Translations under genes and position numbers: made by a program
Source of the DNA: Candidatus Andersenbacteria bacterium RIFCSPHIGHO2_02_FULL_46_16
GTDB taxonomy: Bacteria > Patescibacteriota > Andersenbacteria > UBA10190
Reading direction: 5' to 3'
Assembly: GCA_001817065.1 (NCBI GenBank)
Contig: MHHQ01000016.1
Location: forward strand, 1-54,382
DNA: 54,382 nt
The notes under the pieces: generated by a model
What the model was told of the DNA's origin: nothing
Database searches by the model: none
The model's input: the letters and a program-made list of their open reading frames with translations, nothing else
In this document: in pieces, positions 29,089 to 41,451 of the stretch
How positions within the stretch are numbered: position 1 is the stretch's first letter
Layout of the letters: each line of letters starts with the position of its first letter

Positions 29089-29196
29089 GTAAACCCCCAC
29101 ACCCTGGCCTAAAGGCCAGGGCTTTTCAGCGGAGATAATATAAAAACCATTCATCACCGGCCTTAAAGGCCGGCGCTTTCTGGGTGTGGGGGTAAA
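29089..29196 (+). mobile_element. Element B copy 2
   Basis: Near-identical to 10209..10316. Confidence 0.85.
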
Positions 29197-29273
29197 CTCT
29201 TAGCGACGAAGGGTGGGATTGTTGTATAGTAAGAGAGGAGAAAAGTTAATTTCATTTGATAAATTCTATTTAT

Positions 29274-33639: not shown

Positions 33640-34410
33640 TTGTTCTCTAATAGGAACAAAAGTGATACAATGGAAATGTATTTTCTTTTTTCCATGACAA
33701 AACCGGGACCAAAACCTAGTAGAACCTCTAATCCAAGCTGGACGCCGGAGTTGGCTTACGCATGTGGATTAATTGCGACTGACGGCTCCCTTTCTAAAGA
33801 TGGTAGGCATATAAATCTGACATCTAAAGACGTGGAGCAACTCGAGACTTTTAAGAGGTGCATAGGAATTAACAATAAAATTGCATGGAAATCTAGTGGG
33901 TCATATAGAAACAGTTGTACATATGTGCAATTTGGCGATGTTGTTTTGTATAAATGGCTCATTTCTATTGGTATTACGCCAAAAAAGACTTTCACTATTG
34001 GTGTTGTAAATATTCCTGACAATTACTTTGCTGACTATTTAAGAGGTGAATTTGATGGTGATGGATCCACTCATGCTTATTGGGATACCAGATGGCACAG
34101 CAGTGTATCGCTATACTTGACTTTTGTGTGTGCTAGCAAAAAACACTTGAGATGGTTAAGAGGTGGAATAAAAAGAATGTTTAAAGCCGATGGCCTGATA
34201 CGATGTTATACAAATCATGTTCCCTATTTATTGTTTGCCAAAACAGAAGCAAGAAAGGTTTTTGAGGCGATGTATTATTCTGATGCTATCCCTTTTCTGA
34301 AGCGTAAAAAAGACAAATTTGATCGGCAATGGAGTTCTTTGGAGCAGTCACGGATTGGTAAAAGACCCGCAGGTTTTAAGGGGGGTGGTTCAATAATGCG
34401 TATAGCTTGA
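33640..34410 (+). CDS. Free-standing two-motif LAGLIDADG homing-endonuclease-like protein (real start probably 33670-33694)
   Basis: LAYACGLIATDGSL and DYLRGEFDGDGS motifs; no intron or intein host visible. Confidence 0.85.
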   Translation: MFSNRNKSDTMEMYFLFSMTKPGPKPSRTSNPSWTPELAYACGLIATDGSLSKDGRHINLTSKDVEQLETFKRCIGINNKIAWKSSGSYRNSCTYVQFGDVVLYKWLISIGITPKKTFTIGVVNIPDNYFADYLRGEFDGDGSTHAYWDTRWHSSVSLYLTFVCASKKHLRWLRGGIKRMFKADGLIRCYTNHVPYLLFAKTEARKVFEAMYYSDAIPFLKRKKDKFDRQWSSLEQSRIGKRPAGFKGGGSIMRIA

Positions 34411-34444
34411 AAAGAATCTAATGTACCTGTACTGTCTTAAATGC

Positions 34445-34528
34445 GCGGACGTGGAGAAACCGGCAGACTCGCAGCCTTGAGGGGGCTGTGGCCGCAAGGC
34501 CGTGTGGGTTCAAATCCCACCGTCCGCA
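34445..34528 (+). tRNA. tRNA-Leu(GAG)
   Basis: GCGGACG/CGTCCGC acceptor; CAGCC-TTGAGGG-GGCTG; long variable arm GGCC-GCAA-GGCC. Confidence 0.95.
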
Positions 34529-34744
34529 CTTAGATTCGGCTCATAGCCTCGCTCAGTGTAAACACAGTTTAAAACTAGGTTCGCCCCGAACTACGTAGAG
34601 TTTGGGGCGCCCAGTACCATACGTGGTACTGGGCAAGTCATCTCGTCCGCACTAAATTGGACTTCCCTATTTTTTGGAAGCTAAAGCAATGCAGCTACGC
34701 CACTATTTATCGGGAAGGCTTAGCGCTATTATTTGATACATTTA

Positions 34745-34784
34745 TTGTCAGAAATTGACAAATGTGTAATTCGTGTGCTATAGT
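34745..34784 (+). promoter_or_regulatory. Promoter of the TrmB-like gene with an overlapping palindrome
   Basis: TTGACA 34755-60, TGc-TATAGT 34779-84; TTGTCA-N5-TGACAA dyad over the -35. Confidence 0.6.
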
Positions 34785-34793
34785 AGCGGCAGT

Positions 34794-35555
34794 ATGGTCA
34801 ATGATCTTGAACTTGAATTGCAGAAAATCGGGCTTGATGAGCGCGAGGCTAAGGTTTATTTAGCGGCGTTGGAGCTAGGGCCCAGCCCGGTGCAGAAAAT
34901 TGCCCAGCGGGCGGGTATACCTCGTGCCACCAGTTATCTAGTACTGGATGATCTGCGGGATAAAGGGTTCATCACTACGTATGACGAGGGTAAAAAAACA
35001 TACTTTGTTGCTGAATCACCAGAACGACTGACAAATTTGGTAGATGAACGGGAAGCAGATATTAAAAGGCAAAAAGAAGTGATAAACAAACTTGTTCCGG
35101 AGCTAATTTCCCGGGGACAGTTTGAGCGGGGGCAGCGCCCGGTTGTGAGATATTATGAAGGGGCACAAGCTATTGGCGGCTTTGTGAGAGATTTACTGAC
35201 AGGTCGTGGTGGTGAAGTTCTTAATATTTTACATTTAGATCGTGCAATAAAGACATTAGAGCAGACCGGATTTCCAATAGAGAAAGTCCGCGAACGCCGA
35301 GCTAAGAATCGCATCAAGAGCCGTGTTATCTACACAGCTAATAATGGTCCGGTTAAGGGTTATTCAGCGAAGTTACGACAGGCTAAGTTTATCCCTGTGG
35401 ATCAATATCCCCTTGAGGCTGATATTAGTGTACGTGGAGATCGAGTATTCTTTATTCCTTACTCAATACCTTTGAGGGGTGTGGCAATAGAGGATAAAGC
35501 AGTTGCTAATGCCCTTAAAATGGTTTTTGAGTTGCTTTGGGATAAACTAGGGTAA
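34794..35555 (+). CDS. TrmB-family transcriptional regulator
   Basis: LQKIGLDEREAKVYLAALELG, IAQRAGIPRATSYLVL (wHTH), VRYYEG effector domain. Confidence 0.88.
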   Translation: MVNDLELELQKIGLDEREAKVYLAALELGPSPVQKIAQRAGIPRATSYLVLDDLRDKGFITTYDEGKKTYFVAESPERLTNLVDEREADIKRQKEVINKLVPELISRGQFERGQRPVVRYYEGAQAIGGFVRDLLTGRGGEVLNILHLDRAIKTLEQTGFPIEKVRERRAKNRIKSRVIYTANNGPVKGYSAKLRQAKFIPVDQYPLEADISVRGDRVFFIPYSIPLRGVAIEDKAVANALKMVFELLWDKLG

Positions 35556-35570
35556 AATTTGTCAAAGAAG

Positions 35571-35599
35571 TTGACATTTATTGATATTTGGGATACACT
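35571..35599 (+). promoter_or_regulatory. sigma70 promoter of a ~190-nt mini-transcript
   Basis: TTGACA-17 bp-TACACT. Confidence 0.7.
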
Positions 35600-35604
35600 G
35601 TTAT

Positions 35605-35798
35605 TACCTATTATTGTAAGGTACGTTCTTCAGCGCATGGCCTAGTGAGAAAGGAGGATAAAATGGGCGGAGGCTAAATTACCAGGGTGTCGAACGGTAG
35701 TGGTAACAAAGTTCTTTTGGTTCGCTAACCGTTCGACACGACGCAACAGCCCGGGACTAGACATTACACATTGTGAAGTCTGGTCACCGGGCTTTTTT
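35605..35798 (+). ncRNA. Candidate small RNA / minimal mRNA (SD plus MGGG*)
   Basis: Promoter, AAGGAGG at 35651-57, ATG GGC GGA GGC TAA at 35663-77, 12-bp stem 35687-35739, terminator 35748-35798. Confidence 0.5.
35748..35798 (+). terminator. Intrinsic terminator
   Basis: AGCCCGG-GACTAGAC...GTCTGGTC-aCCGGGCT followed by a T-run. Confidence 0.75.
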
Positions 35799-35852
35799 AT
35801 TTATTATATATAACAGATTATGTATGTATTATATTAGCTGATTTAAGCGGAT

Positions 35853-35916
35853 ATTATAGCAATGGTGAAAATATAGTGTCATAAATCTTGACATAATTTT
35901 ACCGTTCTGCTAAGGT
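35853..35916. promoter_or_regulatory. Back-to-back promoters with closely spaced -35 elements
   Basis: Plus strand: TTGACA 35888-93, 17 bp, TGc-TAAGGT 35911-16. Minus strand: ATGACA (35882-77), 18 bp, TGc-TATAAT (35858-53). Confidence 0.6.
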
Positions 35917-35953
35917 GCCCGTTACACAGAAATTTCAGAGGCAGACAGTTATC

Positions 35954-36226
35954 GGACAGCACCTTTCAGAAAACAACGTACATAACCTTTAACGCGGAGC
36001 CCTGGTCACATGAACTGGGTTCAGAGCCTTGGTAGCTCATTTGCCCAAAGTGGCCGGTATCAAAAGCGCTCCATCATCGTTTTAGGTTTCGTTTTGTTTT
36101 CTCAAAGGTGCTTGTTCCAGGAAATTAAAACTGGCGAGTACTTTGACAATTAAATAATTTCCCCTTTAGCTCCGAGCGTAACAGATCAAGAATGGAGTAG
36201 CTTCTGGGGGCTGAAGTGGAAATTAT
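35954..36226 (+). ncRNA. Highly structured 5' leader (long rod with multibranch apex, boxA-like site, second hairpin)
   Basis: GGACAGCACCTTTCAGAAAACAACG pairs with CGTTTTGTTTTCTCAAAGGTGCTTGTTCC; inner AACCT/AGGTT, AACG/CGTT, GGAGC/GCTCC; GTACTTTGACAA at 36138-49; ATAATTTCC/GGAAATTAT hairpin. Confidence 0.55.
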
Positions 36227-36256
36227 GCGTCAACACAGACACAAAGGGGGTAAACC

Positions 36257-36514
36257 ATGATCGTAAGAAATCCGGTAACGGGTACCCGGGGTTCCGATTT
36301 TGTGGATGCCCTGCCCAATGATTGGGACGAGGCATGGAAGTGGGCGGAACAGCGTGCGGGGAGCAGGGGAACGGGTGATGGCTTTGTCTCTCCTGACCTT
36401 CTGCGACGCGCGTACGTGTTCCTTTTTCAGGCGTTCGCCAGTGACTGTGGCGCCATGAAAGAGATCCAAACTCTCACGGTCACCCAGGTTGTCGAGTGGT
36501 ACCTGGATTTCTAG
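36257..36514 (+). CDS. Hypothetical protein (85 aa)
   Basis: ATG with AAGGGGG SD; first gene after the structured leader. Confidence 0.65.
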   Translation: MIVRNPVTGTRGSDFVDALPNDWDEAWKWAEQRAGSRGTGDGFVSPDLLRRAYVFLFQAFASDCGAMKEIQTLTVTQVVEWYLDF

Positions 36515-36794
36515 CAAACCACTCTCGGGATTGCACGGAGGCATGGCTTGACCCAACGAGCCCCCTTACCCTAGTACCAGAGCAAAGTTTGGTGCGGGAC
36601 TTCGCAATCCCTTTCCCTCTTTCGCGGTCAGCGTCAACTGACGTTTGGTCGTGAATGAGGGGAAACTCTAAGGGGGGAGAAATAAGAAATACTGTTAAGG
36701 AGCTGAAAGCCGGTGCCATCTGTGCCTCCTGAAAACCGGCAATGCTTATTTCTCTTTATCACTCGTCCGTCACTTTTTTAGAAGGAACAGAAGG

Positions 36795-37112
36795 ATGATG
36801 AATGAACAAGAAGTGCGTCGGTTGCGGTTTGAAATGTCTACTAAACTCTCTTTGTTGGCTGACGAGAGTGGGGACAAGAGGTTGTCCCTGGCGTCGGTTT
36901 TGCTCGACCCGCTGGCCACTGATGAGGAAGTGGGTGCCGAGTTTGCCGCTGCCAACATGACTGTCTGGCTGGAGAGGGTTCTGGCCGTGGCCGAGCGGAT
37001 CGAGGCTGACGCGAAGGCTGCGGAGGAGGCAATTCATTTCGACCGTCAGACTGATTGGGAGACGGACATCTCGGATGCCGAGCAAGGATGCTCTCCGGAA
37101 CCTCCTTTTTGA
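36795..37112 (+). CDS. Hypothetical acidic protein (105 aa)
   Basis: AAGGA SD; helical body; acidic tail ending EPPF, reminiscent of an SSB-type C-terminal tip. Confidence 0.7.
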   Translation: MMNEQEVRRLRFEMSTKLSLLADESGDKRLSLASVLLDPLATDEEVGAEFAAANMTVWLERVLAVAERIEADAKAAEEAIHFDRQTDWETDISDAEQGCSPEPPF

Positions 37113-37271
37113 ACTCTCGTTAATCAAGCAGGTTGGCAGGAACACCGCGCTTAGTTCACAAGAACTATGCCTGCCGTAAAACACAAGCGGATTGTACTCT
37201 TGACCGTGAGAGGCATTGAGAGGAATCGTGGTTTGCGATTCTCTCTGTGAGCGGTATGGGAGAAAAACACC

Positions 37272-37616
37272 ATGGCGAAAGTTTACTTTGGTTTTGCATT
37301 AGCTGATTCTATGTTCAATGGTGACTGCACGATTGTGCGCCGTCAGTTGACAGCAGAGGAGGCTAAGGTGCGTGTTGATCAGGGAGTAGTGCCCAGTCTG
37401 AATCCGAGTCACAAGGCGACGATTGAAGCGATGCGGACTCGGTTTGGGATTGACGTGGCGATCCCCGAAAAACCGCCGCAAGTTTCTCTCTCCGCTGGCG
37501 ACTCCATTATAGTGATGGGTGTCCGTGGTTTGGCGCGGTTGACTGACCGTCATGAATACACCGCGGAGGAAATAGCGTCAGTGAACTTCGCTTTCGCGGA
37601 GTACGCCGTTAGCTAG
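37272..37616 (+). CDS. DUF1874/STIV-B116/YddF-like protein; candidate AcrIII-1-type cA4 ring nuclease (divergent)
   Basis: 114 aa with GGGAG SD. Pattern KVYFGFA...SM, LTAEEAK, SLNPSH47KAT, FGI, VSLSAGDSIIV, RLTD...YTAEEI, F.F..Y follows the family layout as recalled (KVYLxNAFS..M, SxIGH47xST, L..GD, RLxEG..L..EE). Confidence 0.6.
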   Translation: MAKVYFGFALADSMFNGDCTIVRRQLTAEEAKVRVDQGVVPSLNPSHKATIEAMRTRFGIDVAIPEKPPQVSLSAGDSIIVMGVRGLARLTDRHEYTAEEIASVNFAFAEYAVS

Positions 37617-37801
37617 TTGTTCTTTCCAGCTTCAGCTGGTTTTCCCTAAAATCCTCGGGATAAAAAACCAGGTATCCCCAAAGTCAACTGATTTTGGGGC
37701 TTTTCTTTCAGAATCTTACGTAATATATATCGGTAGGATTCTGGAATCAAAAGTTAGCAAGTTAGGTGCACTGTTCTTTTTTAAGGGAGGCCTTGAAGGC
37801 C

Positions 37802-38482
37802 ATGAACAAGAGAAACTATTGGCTGGAGAAAGTTCCAGTGTGGGCGTCACAAATCGGTCTTCTTTTTAATGAAGCTGAGACGGTGGGGCTGGAGCATAAA
37901 CGGGCGCAAAAGTGTCTGTTTGCGGTCGCATGGCGTATGGGACTGTTGCGCTTTTTGCGGACGACGCGGGAGAAGGAGATAAACGGACTTCTGGTTGACC
38001 AGACAGAACCTCGCTATTGGTGGGGTTCGTGGGAAGCCTGGGAGGCGGGCAAGCGCGGCTGGTTGTCAGCGGCTTTGGCTTGTCCTTTAGATTTTTCCAA
38101 TTTCGTCAAACTGTGTTTGGCGGAGGAGGAAATTGTACGGGCGGCCACCGAGAATCCAGAGATCACGCCAGATACTCCTCCTATGACATCAGAGGAAGAA
38201 GCTGACTTTCTGGAAACTATTGTAGCCAGCGTTGAGAGTCGGCCTCTGGACATAACTGGAGACTACGCCGGTGTTAACACGCTGCGCCATCGCCTGGAGG
38301 AAATTTCTACTTTGTGGTTGCAGCAACGCACGCGCCTTACCCGTCGTGAAAAACGGCTGGCAGAGCAGTGGGTGGAACTCACTGGTTGGCCACCGACTGG
38401 TGTGTGGTCACCTGCCTGGCAGTGGGCGCCATTTTTGCTGGCGAACTTCACCAGGAAGTGGCACCACGCCAGGGTTGAGTGA
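37802..38482 (+). CDS. Hypothetical Trp-rich protein (~226 aa)
   Basis: Long ORF with GGGAGG upstream of ATG 37802; followed by a terminator. Confidence 0.65.
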   Translation: MNKRNYWLEKVPVWASQIGLLFNEAETVGLEHKRAQKCLFAVAWRMGLLRFLRTTREKEINGLLVDQTEPRYWWGSWEAWEAGKRGWLSAALACPLDFSNFVKLCLAEEEIVRAATENPEITPDTPPMTSEEEADFLETIVASVESRPLDITGDYAGVNTLRHRLEEISTLWLQQRTRLTRREKRLAEQWVELTGWPPTGVWSPAWQWAPFLLANFTRKWHHARVE

Positions 38483-38506
38483 GATAGCTTTCGCAGCTTG
38501 TTATTT

Positions 38507-38538
38507 GAGGACTCTTACTCTAGTGGGGGTCCTTTTTT
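38507..38538 (+). terminator. Intrinsic terminator closing the 36.2-38.5 kb operon
   Basis: GAGGACTCTTAC-tcta-GTGGGGGTCCTT followed by TTTT. Confidence 0.7.
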
Positions 38539-38547
38539 CCTTTTTTA

Positions 38548-38925
38548 TTATTGGTCGTTATCCCTAGAGATAAACCTTTGTTCTAATTCCGCTTTGTGTG
38601 CAGCGGGGATATTTTTAAAAGCTTCAACTTGGGCTTTCTCGAAGATAGCACAGAGCTTCATTAGGTCGCTGTCTGAACCGGCGGAACCTTTTGGTTGTCT
38701 CAATCTATCAAACTCATCCGATGCACGTGGCAGTTTAATTCCATTCTCACGCGCAAAATCATTAATGATTATGTAGCTCTTGATGGCATGACTAAGCTCC
38801 TCAACATTTTGTAGCGTATAATCAACTTTTTCGCGTTGATAATCATCCATTCCTCCAAGATTCATAGGTTTGTCAACTTTTTCTTCGGAGCTGGGACGAA
38901 AACTTGATGGTTCGTGTTCGATCAT
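38548..38925 (-). CDS. Hypothetical protein (125 aa)
   Basis: ATG-initiated ORF with protein-like charged composition, convergent on the operon terminator. Confidence 0.6.
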   Translation of the reverse strand: MIEHEPSSFRPSSEEKVDKPMNLGGMDDYQREKVDYTLQNVEELSHAIKSYIIINDFARENGIKLPRASDEFDRLRQPKGSAGSDSDLMKLCAIFEKAQVEAFKNIPAAHKAELEQRFISRDNDQ

Positions 38926-39145
38926 AGTTATTTAGTAAAATAGTAGCACGTACATTAGACCCTCGGTAAGTGGTTTTGTTCACAGGTAGTTTTGTGTCAG
39001 GTTTATTGTAACGGTGAGCTATCTTTTTGATGGCGCTCTCTCAGCTGTGTCGCAATATTAGTTGCGGTGAATTAGATACTTATTCTGATATTTATAGGCG
39101 GATAATTTATATGATATGCTTTCATATATGGGATCAGAATCGAAC

Positions 39146-39921
39146 ATGGAGAGCAATTTTGGTGATGTTAAGGGTGAACAAGGTCAAGAAAATGTTCCTG
39201 CTGAGGTGGTGGCGGAAGGATTAGACGAGGACATACAACCAGTTAATGAGGACGTAATGCAGCGGCGGCAAGTGGAAATAACAAGTGATATGAAAAGTGC
39301 AGAGATCGTGGAACGTTATAATGTGTCGAGAGCGACTGCTTGGCGTGCTTTGAAGCGGGCTGAAAAGGACCCAGAGGGACGGAGCTATAGATGTCACATT
39401 ATGAAATGCCACTCTTAAATAAACGGGTGGCGGCGCGGGGGACCCCCACCGAGCGCCTGCAGGCTGCCCGCCTGGCAGGCCGAAGCCGTCGGGTGGGGGT
39501 GCAGCGCCGACAGGGCCCGTCACTATATTTGTGGCATTTCATAATGTGACTTCCATACATCTTTCTTAACTATCATGTTAAAGAGATTAATATTGATGAG
39601 AATTGGGCGAAGTCGCATCACGAGGAGTTGACTGAAGACGCCGATTTTGGTGCTCGACTGGCAATAAAGAGTATGAAGAGGGTTTCGGGTTCGGTGGAGG
39701 CCTTCCTCTCTCCGCTTTCTTTTGATGACCTGAAGCAAGAAGCATATATTAGATTATGGCAATTATCAGGCAGGGTGGAGGATAGAGATAATTCAAAATG
39801 GAGGCGTGGAGTGGCACTTAGAGCCGCGTCAGATTTTATTCGGACCAATGTTGTTCGCCATCAGAGCCGACGTTCAAAAGCAAACCCAGAAACTATAAGG
39901 GAGTCATTTGAAGAAGAATAG
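39146..39921 (+). pseudogene. HTH plus sigma-70 region-2-like gene disrupted by MITE-A
   Basis: Removing 170 bp (MITE plus one TA) fuses 39146..39387 in frame with 39558..39921, giving ...DPEGRSY-IFLNYHVKEINIDENWAKSHHEELTEDADF... (~201 aa). Confidence 0.8.
39388..39555 (-). mobile_element. MITE-A copy 4
   Basis: Reverse-complement copy; TA at 39386-87 and 39556-57. Confidence 0.92.
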
Positions 39922-39976
39922 TAAAAATGAGTTGGAGAAGTTGAATACCAAGTGTTGAATTCCTTAAATCTACCAA

Positions 39977-40416
39977 TCATATCTTGTCATTACGCTCCGA
40001 TTTTCGTAACACAACATACCACCCCGGATGATATGGGCCATGCGAGTCGTCCATGACGGCGGCGATATTGAGACTGGAATAAATCCGAAATTCTTTTACT
40101 TGCCCATAGTGCAGAGCAGAAAGGCCATCGTAAGCATTAGGGTCTTCGGTGTAATAACCCGCTACCTGATTCAAGAAAAGTAATGTGCAAGATCCGGATT
40201 TGTCGGTAATGTCTGCCACAGAACGGAATATATAACCCTCCTCCGTTAATTGCCGGTAAATTTCTGTGGCTGTTTTTCTGGGTTACCAAAAGTATGGGCA
40301 ATGATATGGGTGAGATCCAGATTGTTTTTTATAGGAACTTTGGAAAGTCCTGCACAGCGTCTCCGGTAATTCTCCGCGTCCAGCCCACCGTCGGATAATG
40401 GCAGATCAGGCTCATT
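39977..40416 (-). pseudogene. 5'-truncated, frameshifted hypothetical gene
   Basis: Minus strand reads NEPDLPLSDGGLDAENYRRRC...FGNPEK, then a frameshift at an A-run (~40273-77), then TATEIYRQLTEEGYIFRSVADITDK...NDKI*. The 5' end abuts the 60-bp repeat. Confidence 0.5.
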
Positions 40417-40472
40417 TGTTCAGTTTCCGCTCGAAAAAGGTTCGCGCAAAGTGTATGATTACAGCACCAGTA
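40413..40472 (+). repeat. 60-bp motif shared with 53651..53710 (putative integrative-element end)
   Basis: 54/60 identity by manual alignment. Confidence 0.75.
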
Positions 40473-40513
40473 GTAACCAATAATCAGTAACTTGTAATCA
40501 GTTTGATGTTGGG

Positions 40514-40585
40514 TGGGCGGTATAGGATTTGAACCTATGGCCTACTGAATGTAAGTCAGTTGCTCTACCACTGAGCTAACCGCCC
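40514..40585 (-). tRNA. tRNA-Val(TAC)
   Basis: GGGCGGT/ACCGCCC acceptor; ACTGA-CTTACAT-TCAGT. Confidence 0.95.
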
Positions 40586-40758: not shown

Positions 40759-41451
40759 ATGCACCGGTTAGTCAATATTATTGATACAAAGTGGAGACCA
40801 GAACTGGCATATGCGATTGGCTTGATCGCGTCCGATGGCAACCTACGTAAGGATAATAAAGGAATTTGCTTTGTTTCAAAGGACAGGGAGCTTATAGATA
40901 GGTTTCGTGAATCTATTTCGCTGAAAAAGGAACCTTATAGGAGTGGTCGCGGTGGTACAAAAAAGAAAAATTATTGGACGGTTCAATTTAAGAGTAGAAA
41001 TTTTCATGATTTTCTTGTGAGTGTTGGCGTTACTCCTAAGAAATCAAAGACAATTAAGGCGGTTCAGGTACCAAACTCCTATTTTGCTGATTTTCTTCGT
41101 GGGCTTTACGACGGAGACGGTACTTTTTGGACTACTTGGGATAAGCGATGGCCTCAGAGCTTTGTTTATTATCTTGGTTTTAGTACAGCGAGCCCATATT
41201 TTGTTAGATGGCTTAAAAAGAGAATCGCAGATCAGTTTAAAGTAAAGGGTTATATTCATAATGGTGATGGAGTTTTTACAATCCGTTATGTCAAAGGGGA
41301 TTCGCGCAAATTATTTAAGGCAATGTATTATCGAAAAGGGTTATTATATCTATCCAGAAAATATCTAAAAATCAAAGAGGCGATTGATTATGATGAGCGG
41401 CTTAAAGATATTAGGATTCAGCAGAGGTCAGGTACTATAGTAGCAAGTTAA
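40759..41451 (+). CDS. Free-standing two-motif LAGLIDADG homing-endonuclease-like protein (paralog of 33640..34410)
   Basis: LAYAIGLIASDGNL and DFLRGLYDGDGT; shares WxPELAYA, SKD.E, G.TPKK, WD.RW and AMYY...L.RK with the first copy. Confidence 0.85.
   Translation: MHRLVNIIDTKWRPELAYAIGLIASDGNLRKDNKGICFVSKDRELIDRFRESISLKKEPYRSGRGGTKKKNYWTVQFKSRNFHDFLVSVGVTPKKSKTIKAVQVPNSYFADFLRGLYDGDGTFWTTWDKRWPQSFVYYLGFSTASPYFVRWLKKRIADQFKVKGYIHNGDGVFTIRYVKGDSRKLFKAMYYRKGLLYLSRKYLKIKEAIDYDERLKDIRIQQRSGTIVAS

What the first reader, a model, noticed from the sequence alone, without database searches (positions are those of the whole stretch)
37272..37616. Divergent AcrIII-1 (DUF1874) ring-nuclease-like gene
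Seen: 114 aa with His at position 47 in S-L-N-P-S-H-K-A-T, an N-terminal KVYF strand, L.AGD.IIV and RLTD...TAEEI. Known (from memory): SIRV1 gp29/AcrIII-1 is about this size, uses catalytic His47 in a GHxxT motif and degrades cyclic tetra-adenylate to disable type III CRISPR; B. subtilis YddF is a homolog. Differences: GH is replaced by PSH and the conserved NR is absent (EKPP), so specificity may differ (another cyclic oligonucleotide). CPR bacteria mostly lack CRISPR and live on host cells, so a chromosomal signal-degrading enzyme could target host or community immunity (inference).
Basis: partly seen in the sequence, partly recalled or inferred. Interest (0 to 1): 0.85.

Follow-up and report, generated by a model that had tools for sequence, protein, structure and literature searches.

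The report
Divergent DUF1874 ring-nuclease-like gene on island
This small gene truly encodes a protein with the fold and key histidine of the viral enzymes that destroy a CRISPR alarm molecule, but it belongs to a separate, very conserved branch with a rebuilt binding pocket that sits on a small accessory island in a genome with no detectable alarm system, so what it cuts is still open.

Summary
Window 37272-37616 (+) is a real 114-aa gene with His47 in S-L-N-P-S-H-K-A-T.

**Fold and homology**
- A profile-profile comparison with canonical DUF1874 proteins gives 98.1% probability, E 1.1e-13.
- A homodimer is predicted.

**Active site**
- His47, Thr50 and the lid Arg-Leu-x-acid motif are kept.
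- Most cA4-contact residues of SIRV1 gp29 (N8, S11, S49, R66, Q81) are replaced by other clade-conserved residues.

**Family and distribution**
- It is a separate clade: 324 clusters at 50% identity, members 60-80% identical, dN/dS about 0.16.
- It is found sporadically: 0 of 40 close relatives and 8 of 401 genomes of the phylum. Most carriers are Patescibacteria, with a few phage-like or IS contexts.

**Context**
- The gene lies on a roughly 6-kb insertion between two tRNA genes that is absent from the same-genus genome.
- A TrmBL2-like regulator lies upstream here and in 29 of 62 loci.
- No Cas1, Cas10 or CD-NTase was detected in this genome.

**Verdict**
It is probably a His-dependent ring-nuclease-type phosphodiesterase with altered specificity. 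The idea that it targets host immunity has no support. I rate it a new variant of a known kind, of moderate interest.

The parts
37272..37616 (+). 114-aa CDS (stop included) of a divergent DUF1874 / AcrIII-1 / Crn2-fold protein
37410..37412 (+). Codon of His47, the putative general acid
   Evidence: Aligns with gp29 H47 in MAFFT and hhalign. His is present in 138 of 150 cluster representatives. The role of H47 in gp29 comes from passages of bioRxiv 10.1101/778746.
37518..37559 (+). Residues 83-96, G-V-R-G-L-A-R-L-T-D-R-H-E-Y: the putative mobile lid loop with R89, L90 and D92
   Evidence: R89, L90 and D92 align with gp29 R85, L86 and E88. pLDDT is lowest here, with block means of 77 and 65. 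The segment is invariant in 30 close homologues except position 88.
37626..37699 (+). Two terminator-like hairpins just after the stop codon (37626-37639 and 37676-37699)
   Evidence: Consensus scan. This is a pattern match only.
34773..35555 (+). TrmB/TrmBL2-like winged-helix regulator, the recurrent upstream partner of the DUF1874 gene
   Evidence: Pfam TrmB E 8.7e-16. The model (pLDDT 90) matches TrmBL2 5bqt at E 1.2e-13. A homologue is present in 29 of 62 loci, upstream in 28 of those 29.
34530..40511 (.). Roughly 6-kb insertion between tRNA-Leu(gag) 34445-34529 and tRNA-Val(tac) 40512-40585. It holds the regulator, the DUF1874 gene and orphan ORFs.
   Evidence: The two tRNA genes are 98 bp apart in the same-genus genome G001 and 5,982 bp apart here. 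A contig from another run spans 33749-36132, which bridges the left junction. No listed piece spanned the right junction.
39386..39557 (.). Palindromic multi-copy repeat (MITE-like) inside the island
   Evidence: Inverted repeat I1. At least 11 copies at 98% identity or more appear among the rows shown for the own genome. Contig depth is 136-214 against about 6 in the flanks.

Best explanation
The gene encodes a homodimeric protein of the DUF1874 (AcrIII-1/Crn2) fold. It belongs to a separate, strongly constrained clade found mainly in Patescibacteria.

Shown here:
- The fold, and homology to the ring-nuclease family.
- Conservation of the catalytic-type His47, of Thr50, and of the lid Arg-Leu-x-Asp/Glu motif.
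- A predicted dimer whose interface includes the segment (residues 9-13) that binds cA4 in gp29.
- Replacement of most base- and phosphate-contacting residues of gp29 by other residues conserved in this clade.
- Location on an accessory island beside a TrmBL2-like regulator.

Inferred:
- It works as a metal-independent phosphodiesterase that binds a small phosphate-rich ligand, most likely a cyclic oligonucleotide, at the dimer interface.
- The 83-96 loop closes over the ligand, and cleavage uses the 2'-OH with His47 as general acid, as in AcrIII-1.
- The recognition pocket is different, so its preferred substrate may not be cA4.
- In the cell it would switch off a nucleotide alarm signal. That could be an anti-defence gene of mobile elements, or a domesticated off-switch, with the neighbouring winged-helix protein controlling its expression.
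For: Fold:
- The AF2 model has pLDDT 88.
- Foldseek hits are 6scf AcrIII-1 (E 5.7e-7, TM 0.74), 2x4i, 2j85, 8y7f/8y7g Csx1-Crn2 and 2j6b.

Sequence:
- Pfam PF08960 E 0.0019.
- Profile against PDB finds AFV3-109 at E 0.081, with His aligned.
- hhalign of the clade against canonical DUF1874 gives probability 98.1%, E 1.1e-13 over 108 columns.
- PADLOC gives a weak Csx16 hit, E 2.9e-4.

Active site:
- H47 aligns with H47, T50 with T50, R89 with R85, L90 with L86 and D92 with E88.
- Among 150 cluster representatives, H47 is present in 138, T50 in 127 and R89 in 129.

Dimer:
- ipSAE is 0.79 against 0.00 for the best of 3 controls. The mark was reached by 20 of 30 proteins solved as pairs of one chain and 1 of 23 solved as single chains.
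- The runs agree in at least 96% of their contacts and partner pLDDT is at least 78.
- The interface comprises residues 9-13, 15, 17-25, 81, 83-85, 109 and 111.
- DUF1874 dimers have been solved, so this pass may reflect likeness to known structures.

Basic pocket:
- Basic residues are common among the 150 representatives: R23 in 111, K or R70 in 84, R85 in 85, R89 in 129, R93 in 95.

Selection:
- dN/dS is 0.16.

Mobile or anti-defence context:
- The roughly 6-kb insertion.
- 0 of 40 relatives and 8 of 401 genomes of the phylum.
- 6 IMG/VR loci. In L082 the homologue lies between a primase and an anti-restriction family gene (phrog_7245, E 7e-68).
- An IS21 pair lies next to it in L012.

Regulator partner.
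Against: - No enzymatic data exist for any member of this clade.
- Seven of the 14 residues invariant in my canonical alignment are changed: N8 to F, F10 to L, S11 to A, G46 to S, N65 to K, R66 to P, G89 to R.
- Of the 8 side chains that the paper lists as contacting cA4 (R85, R66, N8, Q81, S11, T50, S49, N13), only R85 and T50 are kept. N13 becomes S.
- The Pfam score is below the gathering cut-off.
- No producer of a cyclic-oligoadenylate signal was detected in the own genome (98.5% complete). Cas1 gave none. Csm1 gave only 19.6 bits over model positions 3-58. Cmr2 and SMODS gave none. The SAVED search is uninformative because its control did not ring.
- In five other carrier genomes no Cas10 scored over the cut-off, and SMODS matched in 1 of 5.
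- 12 of 150 representatives lack His47.
- The unusually high conservation over the whole 114 aa fits a protein-binding role as well as it fits an enzyme.
- For SIRV2 gp37 a non-Acr role has been reported, namely inhibition of a host lysine methyltransferase (abstract and section 10 of bioRxiv 10.1101/2023.01.10.523387).
Confidence: 0.55

Rival explanations
1. It is an ordinary cA4-specific ring nuclease. It would be an AcrIII-1 if carried by a mobile element, or a Crn2-like housekeeping off-switch. The pocket substitutions would be just another way to hold cA4.
For: The fold, His47, Thr50 and the lid Arg are the same as in the cA4 enzymes. All characterised stand-alone ring nucleases named in the section I read are cA4-specific (PMC12409355 section 10). 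There is a weak Csx16 hit. Some homologues lie in phage-like or IS contexts.
Against: Most cA4-contacting side chains are replaced. No type III CRISPR marker was detected in the own genome or in five other carriers. No CRISPR-associated family appeared among the 25 Pfam families listed for each of the two sets of 59 immediate neighbours; 34 and 33 families matched in all, so 9 and 8 were not shown.
Confidence: 0.25
2. It is a non-enzymatic binder on the DUF1874 scaffold. It could be a sponge for a nucleotide signal, or an inhibitor or partner of another protein or of DNA, with His47 kept for binding rather than catalysis.
For: 37 of 114 columns are invariant in 30 homologues. Identity is 60-80% across deep lineages even though dS is saturated. 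A protein-binding role is reported for SIRV2 gp37. Csx15 is discussed as a possible sponge (PMC12409355 section 10). Two of 59 downstream neighbours carry an RNA polymerase alpha C-terminal domain.
Against: The most conserved polar residue is the one that is catalytic in AcrIII-1 (138 of 150). No conserved partner other than the regulator was found. The 25 longer forms carry no other known domain.
Confidence: 0.15
3. The protein is exported or transferred by the episymbiont to destroy the immune signalling of its host cell or of neighbouring cells.
For: Only the general lifestyle of Patescibacteria (recalled), and the lack of a detected signal producer in the own genome.
Against: No extension precedes the first strand of the fold. 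The gene is rare in the phylum (8 of 401). It also occurs on large contigs labelled Melainabacteria (3.4 Mb) and Bryobacterales (2.4 Mb). No secretion gene is a conserved neighbour.
Confidence: 0.03

Closest known systems
AcrIII-1 (SIRV1 gp29, PDB 6scf/2x4i; DUF1874, PF08960)
   Same: Same length, 114 aa. Same fold. His47, Thr50, Met14, Ala9 and the lid Arg-Leu-x-acid motif align. A dimer is predicted.
   Different: About 19% identity. N8, S11, S49, N65, R66, Q81 and G89 are replaced. There are two-residue insertions before His47, after residue 61 and in the lid. It is not in an archaeal virus. No type III CRISPR is known in its setting.
Crn2 (cellular DUF1874 ring nuclease; Marinitoga Csx1-Crn2 fusion, PDB 8y7g/8y7f)
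   Different: It is not fused to Csx1 or to any known domain. It is not next to type III CRISPR genes.
AFV3-109 and STIV B116 (structural founders of DUF1874)
   Different: These are archaeal virus proteins, and they carry the canonical N-A-F-S, G-H and N-R motifs.
Csx16 (CRISPR-associated cA4 ring nuclease)
   Different: The hit is far weaker than the DUF1874 link, and there is no CRISPR context here.
Acr-Aca type pairs (anti-defence gene with an adjacent HTH regulator). The concept is recalled, not taken from a call.
   Same: A winged-helix regulator lies next to the gene in about half of the loci, and it is often divergently transcribed.
   Different: The regulator is a 260-aa TrmBL2-like protein with a PLD-like C-terminal domain. 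It is not a small Aca, and it lies upstream rather than downstream. Regulation is untested.

Membership tests
DUF1874 / PF08960 (STIV_B116-like) superfamily | Characteristic alpha/beta fold of B116, AFV3-109 and gp29 | tested here: met
DUF1874 / PF08960 (STIV_B116-like) superfamily | Score over the Pfam gathering cut-off | tested here: not met
   18.8 bits against a cut-off of 26, E 0.0019. By my count of the table, 49 of the 120 listed homologues carry a precomputed PF08960 hit.
DUF1874 / PF08960 (STIV_B116-like) superfamily | Detectable sequence homology to canonical members | tested here: met
   hhalign of A6 against A5: probability 98.1%, E 1.1e-13, 108 columns.
DUF1874 / PF08960 (STIV_B116-like) superfamily | Homodimer | tested here: met
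   This is a model only. ipSAE 0.79 against a best control of 0.00 (of 3 controls). The mark was reached by 20 of 30 solved pairs of one chain and 1 of 23 single chains. Contacts agree at 96% or more and pLDDT is 78 or more. The pass may reflect likeness to solved DUF1874 dimers.
AcrIII-1 / Crn2 ring nucleases | Catalytic histidine (gp29 H47) at the start of helix 2 | tested here: met
   H47 aligns with H47. The helix spans residues 45-58 in the model. His is present in 138 of 150 representatives.
AcrIII-1 / Crn2 ring nucleases | Canonical invariant motifs N-A-F-S..M, G-H..T, N-R and R-L-x-E-G | tested here: not met
   A9, M14, H47, T50, R85 and L86 are kept, and E88 is kept as Asp. N8, F10, S11, G46, N65, R66 and G89 are changed.
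AcrIII-1 / Crn2 ring nucleases | cA4-contacting side chains (R85, R66, N8, Q81, S11, T50, S49, N13) | tested here: not met
   Only R85 (here R89) and T50 are kept, and N13 becomes S13. The residue list comes from passages of bioRxiv 10.1101/778746. The mapping comes and is sequence-based, not a superposition.
AcrIII-1 / Crn2 ring nucleases | Cleavage of cyclic tetra-adenylate | not testable with these tools
   This needs a biochemical assay.
Crn2 (CRISPR-associated) | Encoded in or beside a type III CRISPR-Cas locus | tested here: not met
   In the own genome: no Cas1, no Csm1 over the cut-off, and no Cmr2. No Cas family appeared among the 25 families listed for each of the two sets of 59 neighbours; 34 and 33 families matched in all. 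In five other carriers, 0 of 5 had a Cas10 over the cut-off.
AcrIII-1 (viral anti-CRISPR) | Carried by a virus or other mobile element | tested here: inconclusive
   Here it is on a 6-kb island with no integrase or phage gene recognised. Homologues occur in 6 IMG/VR loci, one of them next to anti-restriction and primase genes, and beside an IS21 pair. Most of the 61 genome loci show housekeeping neighbours.
Csx16 | Match to the Csx16 model | tested here: inconclusive
   PDLC01147, E 2.9e-4, 19.6 bits. PADLOC models carry no curated cut-off in this tool.

The most novel reading that the evidence does not exclude
This clade may be a ring nuclease for a nucleotide signal other than cA4. The signal could be made by an as yet unrecognised synthase in Patescibacteria or in their phages or hosts. 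The TrmBL2-like neighbour would act as its dedicated, Aca-like controller. If so, the ultra-conserved remodelled pocket (F8, D12, R23, N44-P-S-H47, R85, R89, R93, Y96) would define a new ligand specificity within the DUF1874 fold. It would also point to nucleotide-based immune signalling in a phylum thought to be nearly devoid of it.
Probability: 0.15. Interest if true: 0.75.

Novelty: new variant of a known kind. Interest (0 to 1): 0.42.

Why it matters
DUF1874 enzymes are the fastest known destroyers of the cA4 alarm signal of type III CRISPR. This clade keeps the catalytic histidine and lid but has a rebuilt binding pocket, and it is held nearly constant across Patescibacteria genomes in which the Cas10 searches run here found none. 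That offers a concrete way to ask two questions: whether these reduced bacteria or their mobile elements use, or counter, another nucleotide signal, and how ligand specificity is set in this fold. If the protein simply cleaves cA4, it is one more AcrIII-1/Crn2 relative on an accessory island, which would be ordinary.

Tried and rejected
**Searches that gave nothing useful**
- A single-sequence search of the PDB gave only a chance hit, 5ey5 at E 1.5.
- hhalign of the close-homologue alignment A1 against gp29 alone mis-aligned (probability 0.8%). I replaced it with a broader clade alignment against a canonical alignment.
- tblastn against phage records found no close relative. The best was an unverified 'Bacteriophage sp.' record at E 3e-4. 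Plasmids gave only three Planktothrix records at 28-29% identity.

**Tests for mobility or extra function that came back empty**
- I looked for att-type direct repeats at the island ends and found none convincing.
- Among the ORFs I scanned, no integrase or phage family was recognised on the island.
- The other island ORFs have no homologue in the 61 related loci and no hit in PADLOC. Those that I also scanned in NCBIfam, which excludes the ORFs 36257-36511 (+) and 36233-36556 (-), gave only weak sub-threshold DNA-binding and sigma-70 hits for two ORFs and nothing for the rest.
- Fused or longer forms carry no other Pfam domain: 10 representatives, and 25 proteins of 201-320 aa.
- The TrmB-like partner's hits to Csa3, CasR and CARF3 models cover only its winged-helix domain. 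I do not read them as evidence of a CARF sensor. Its fold is TrmBL2-like with a PLD-like C-terminal domain.

**Limits of what was run**
- The SAVED search is uninformative because its control rang nowhere.
- No RNA holder was listed among the sequencing runs.
- In the laid contigs, no listed piece spans the right island junction at 40170-40561, where highly repeated sequence breaks the contigs. Runs X3 and X4 gave identical figures and count as one data set.
- The ESM Atlas gave PF08960 clusters whose few labelled members are mostly viral. That is a lead only.
- Literature searches for DUF1874 with Patescibacteria, and for 'ring nuclease' with Saccharibacteria, found 0 papers each. A five-term search listed only papers without DUF1874 or AcrIII-1.
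- Supplementary figures of the papers (alignments, contact maps) were not seen and may refine the residue lists.

Full report
**Observation**

- Residues 42-50 are S-L-N-P-S-H-K-A-T, with His47 at 37410-37412.
- The other quoted strings (K-V-Y-F at 3-6, L-S-A-G-D-S-I-I-V at 73-81, R-L-T-D at 89-92, T-A-E-E-I at 97-101) are all present.
- Two terminator-like hairpins follow the stop codon.

The gene is real.
- 940 database proteins match at E<=0.01, and the 120 listed are 64-100% identical.
- Thirty of them align without internal gaps from the same start Met, with 37 invariant columns.
- Across the related genomic loci the sense frame shows median dN 0.32, dS about 2.0 and dN/dS 0.16. This is from 229 of 400 sampled pairs; the other 171 had saturated or undefined dS.
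- Because dS is saturated, the high protein identity reflects old divergence under strong constraint, not recent spread.

**What it is**

By sequence alone the link to DUF1874 is weak.
- Pfam PF08960 (STIV_B116-like) gives E 0.0019 and 18.8 bits, under the 26-bit cut-off.
- phrog_5063 gives E 0.0013.
- The family profile finds only AFV3-109 in the PDB, at E 0.081.

Structure settles it.
- The AlphaFold2 model built on 30 homologues has mean pLDDT 88.
- By Foldseek it matches AcrIII-1 (6scf, E 5.7e-7, TM 0.74), SIRV1 ORF114 (2x4i), STIV B116 (2j85), the Crn2 domain of Marinitoga Csx1-Crn2 (8y7f, 8y7g) and AFV3-109 (2j6b).
- The viral structure library gives the same families.

I then built a wider alignment of the clade (A6, 26 sequences down to 33% identity) and a canonical alignment (A5: SIRV1 gp29, its 16 database relatives and the THSA-485A phage protein). 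Profile-profile comparison gives probability 98.1%, E 1.1e-13 over 108 columns. Fold and homology are therefore established.

A homodimer is predicted.
- ipSAE is 0.79 against 0.00 for the best of three controls.
- The mark was reached by 20 of 30 proteins solved as pairs of one chain and 1 of 23 solved as single chains.
- Contacts agree at 96% or more, and pLDDT is 78 or more.
- DUF1874 dimers have been solved, so this pass may only reflect that likeness.

**Active-site anatomy**

The paper on AcrIII-1 (passages of bioRxiv 10.1101/778746) reports the following:
- His47 is the absolutely conserved general acid.
- Residues 82-94 form a loop that closes over cA4.
- R85 locks the closed dimer.
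- Side-chain contacts to cA4 come from R66, N8, Q81, S11, T50, S49 and N13.

MAFFT and hhalign give the same mapping onto the window protein.

| gp29 residue | Window residue | Status |
|---|---|---|
| H47 | H47 | kept |
| T50 | T50 | kept |
| M14 | M14 | kept |
| A9 | A9 | kept |
| R85 | R89 | kept |
| L86 | L90 | kept |
| E88 | D92 | kept as acid |
| N8 | F8 | changed |
| S11 | A11 | changed |
| N13 | S13 | changed |
| G46 | S46 | changed |
| S49 | A49 | changed |
| N65 | K67 | changed |
| R66 | P68 | changed |
| Q81 | G83 | changed |
| G89 | R93 | changed |

- Seven of the fourteen columns invariant in the canonical alignment are kept or conservatively kept, and seven are changed.
- Most replacements are themselves conserved in the clade; position 67 is variable and position 83 is Ser more often than Gly. 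Among 150 representatives of 50%-identity clusters, F8 occurs in 106, D12 in 107, R23 in 111, N44 in 131, H47 in 138, T50 in 127, R89 in 129 and Y96 in 127.
- His94, which looked like a possible second catalytic His, is present in only 72 of 150, so I do not rely on it.
- The lid region has the lowest model confidence, as expected of a mobile loop.
- The predicted dimer interface includes residues 9-13 and 83-85, the segments that correspond to ligand-binding positions of gp29.
- This mapping is sequence-based. I had no coordinates with which to superpose.

**How big and how spread the clade is**

- A profile search of 1.84 billion cluster representatives finds 324 clusters at E<=0.001, 231 at E<=1e-10 and 63 at E<=1e-30.
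- In one genome per species, 61 loci were confirmed by the two peptide patterns used.
- By record title, 34 are Saccharibacteria, 20 are other Patescibacteria and 7 are labelled otherwise. The 7 include contigs of 3.4 Mb (Melainabacteria) and 2.4 Mb (Bryobacterales), which are too long to be stray small-genome contigs.
- The gene is nevertheless rare. It was not found in 0 of 40 relatives of the window's genome, including the same genus, and it was found in 8 of 401 genomes sampled across the phylum, the own genome included.

**Context**

The own assembly is 1.36 Mb in 32 contigs and 98.5% complete.

The island:
- The same-genus genome G001 is collinear on both sides.
- In G001, tRNA-Val(tac) and tRNA-Leu(gag) are 98 bp apart. 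In the window they are 5,982 bp apart.
- Window 34530-40511 is therefore an insertion, or a deletion in G001.
- Contigs from another sequencing run span 33749-36132 without a difference, so the left junction is not an assembly artefact. The right junction is not bridged by the pieces listed.

What the island holds:
- A TrmB-family regulator at 34773-35555.
- About 1.7 kb of GC-richer sequence with overlapping ORFs on both strands.
- The DUF1874 gene.
- A 238-aa orphan ORF.
- Small HTH and sigma-70-region-2-like ORFs.
- A multi-copy palindromic repeat.
- None of the orphan ORFs recurs in the 61 related loci.

The regulator does recur.
- An unbiased clustering of all ORFs in the loci finds a homologue in 29 of 62 loci, and in 21 of the 42 loci that have at least 2.5 kb on both sides.
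- It is upstream in 28 of the 29. Of those, 18 are divergent and 10 co-directional, and 15 lie within 700 bp.
- 15 of 59 immediate upstream ORFs match Pfam TrmB.
- The own genome has six such paralogues. Chance adjacency within 6 kb upstream would be about 3%, by my own estimate.
- The regulators are only 18-34% identical to the window's, while their DUF1874 neighbours are mostly 55-75% identical.
- The regulator model (pLDDT 90) resembles the archaeal TrmBL2 over its full length (E 1.2e-13), with a PLD-like C-terminal domain.

Other neighbours and contexts:
- All other neighbours vary and are mostly housekeeping genes.
- In a 68-kb IMG/VR contig, the homologue lies downstream of a primase and is followed directly by an anti-restriction family gene.
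- In the Melainabacteria contig it lies next to an IS21 transposase pair.

**Is there a signal to degrade?**

- In the own genome I found no Cas1 and no Cmr2.
- Csm1 gave only a 19.6-bit match to model positions 3-58.
- There was no SMODS cyclase.
- The SAVED search is void because its control did not ring.
- Five other carriers have no Cas10 over the cut-off, and one has a SMODS match.
- These are a handful of models, not a full defence census.

**Mechanism and rivals**

The best-supported reading is a dimeric, His47-dependent, metal-independent phosphodiesterase of the ring-nuclease type with a remodelled, arginine-rich pocket. I put confidence in this reading at 0.55.
- Whether it still prefers cA4 is open. 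I give the plain cA4 reading 0.25.
- A binder or sponge role gets 0.15. Arguments for it are the exceptional whole-surface conservation and the reported non-Acr role of SIRV2 gp37.
- The adjacent regulator suggests controlled expression, as with the HTH partners of anti-defence genes. That analogy is recalled, not tested.

**Comparison and novelty**

According to the passages I read:
- DUF1874 proteins are already known to be scattered through bacterial genomes and mobile elements away from CRISPR loci.
- They are far more common in phages (36 genomes) than in type III loci (7).

A DUF1874 relative on an accessory island is therefore not new in kind. What appears new:
- A distinct clade, sub-threshold for Pfam.
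- Conserved replacement of most of the cA4-contact set.
- Its concentration in Patescibacteria.
- The recurrent TrmBL2-like partner.

I found no paper that joins DUF1874 with Patescibacteria, or 'ring nuclease' with Saccharibacteria (0 papers each).

I rate it a new variant of a known kind, with interest 0.42.

Noticed in passing
window 39386-39557: A 172-nt palindromic, MITE-like repeat. At least 11 copies at 98% identity or more appear among the rows shown for the own genome, on contigs C16, C13, C25 and C32. Contig depth is 136-214 against about 6 in the flanks in other runs. The HTH ORF 39116-39418 runs into it.
   Followed up: partly
window 29089-29197: A second short repeat of about 108 nt. 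It has 10 copies at 92-100% identity in the own genome and several at 84-97% in the same-genus genome G001.
   Followed up: partly
window 33640-34410 and 40759-41451: Two free-standing LAGLIDADG-type ORFs (Pfam LAGLIDADG_3) lie beside tRNA genes on either side of the island. The left one has a 66%-identical DNA counterpart in G001.
   Followed up: no
window 35600-37270: A GC-richer stretch (0.51 in 36001-38000) between the regulator and the DUF1874 gene. It carries similar-length ORFs on both strands (36230-36556 -, 36257-36514 +, 36759-37184 -, 36795-37112 +). The ORFs tested there match no Pfam or PADLOC family, and none recurs in the 61 related loci. Whether it is coding is undecided.
   Followed up: partly
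window 39116-39418 and 39628-39921: Small HTH (HTH_11/HTH_23) and sigma-70 region-2-like ORFs flank the MITE-like repeat. They could be remnants of one regulator gene split by the repeat.
   Followed up: no
L082 8001-9333 (IMG/VR contig): The homologue (66% identical) is followed directly by an anti-restriction family gene (phrog_7245, E 7e-68). A DNA primase lies at the locus start.
   Followed up: partly
L084 6014-6970 and L085 7650-8606 (IMG/VR contigs): The DUF1874 homologue forms the C-terminal third of a 318-aa ORF. Database forms of 201-320 aa also exist, with no other known domain.
   Followed up: partly
downstream neighbours in 2 of 59 related loci: Two immediate downstream ORFs match the RNA polymerase alpha C-terminal domain, PF03118. 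This is a possible but thin link to transcription.
   Followed up: no
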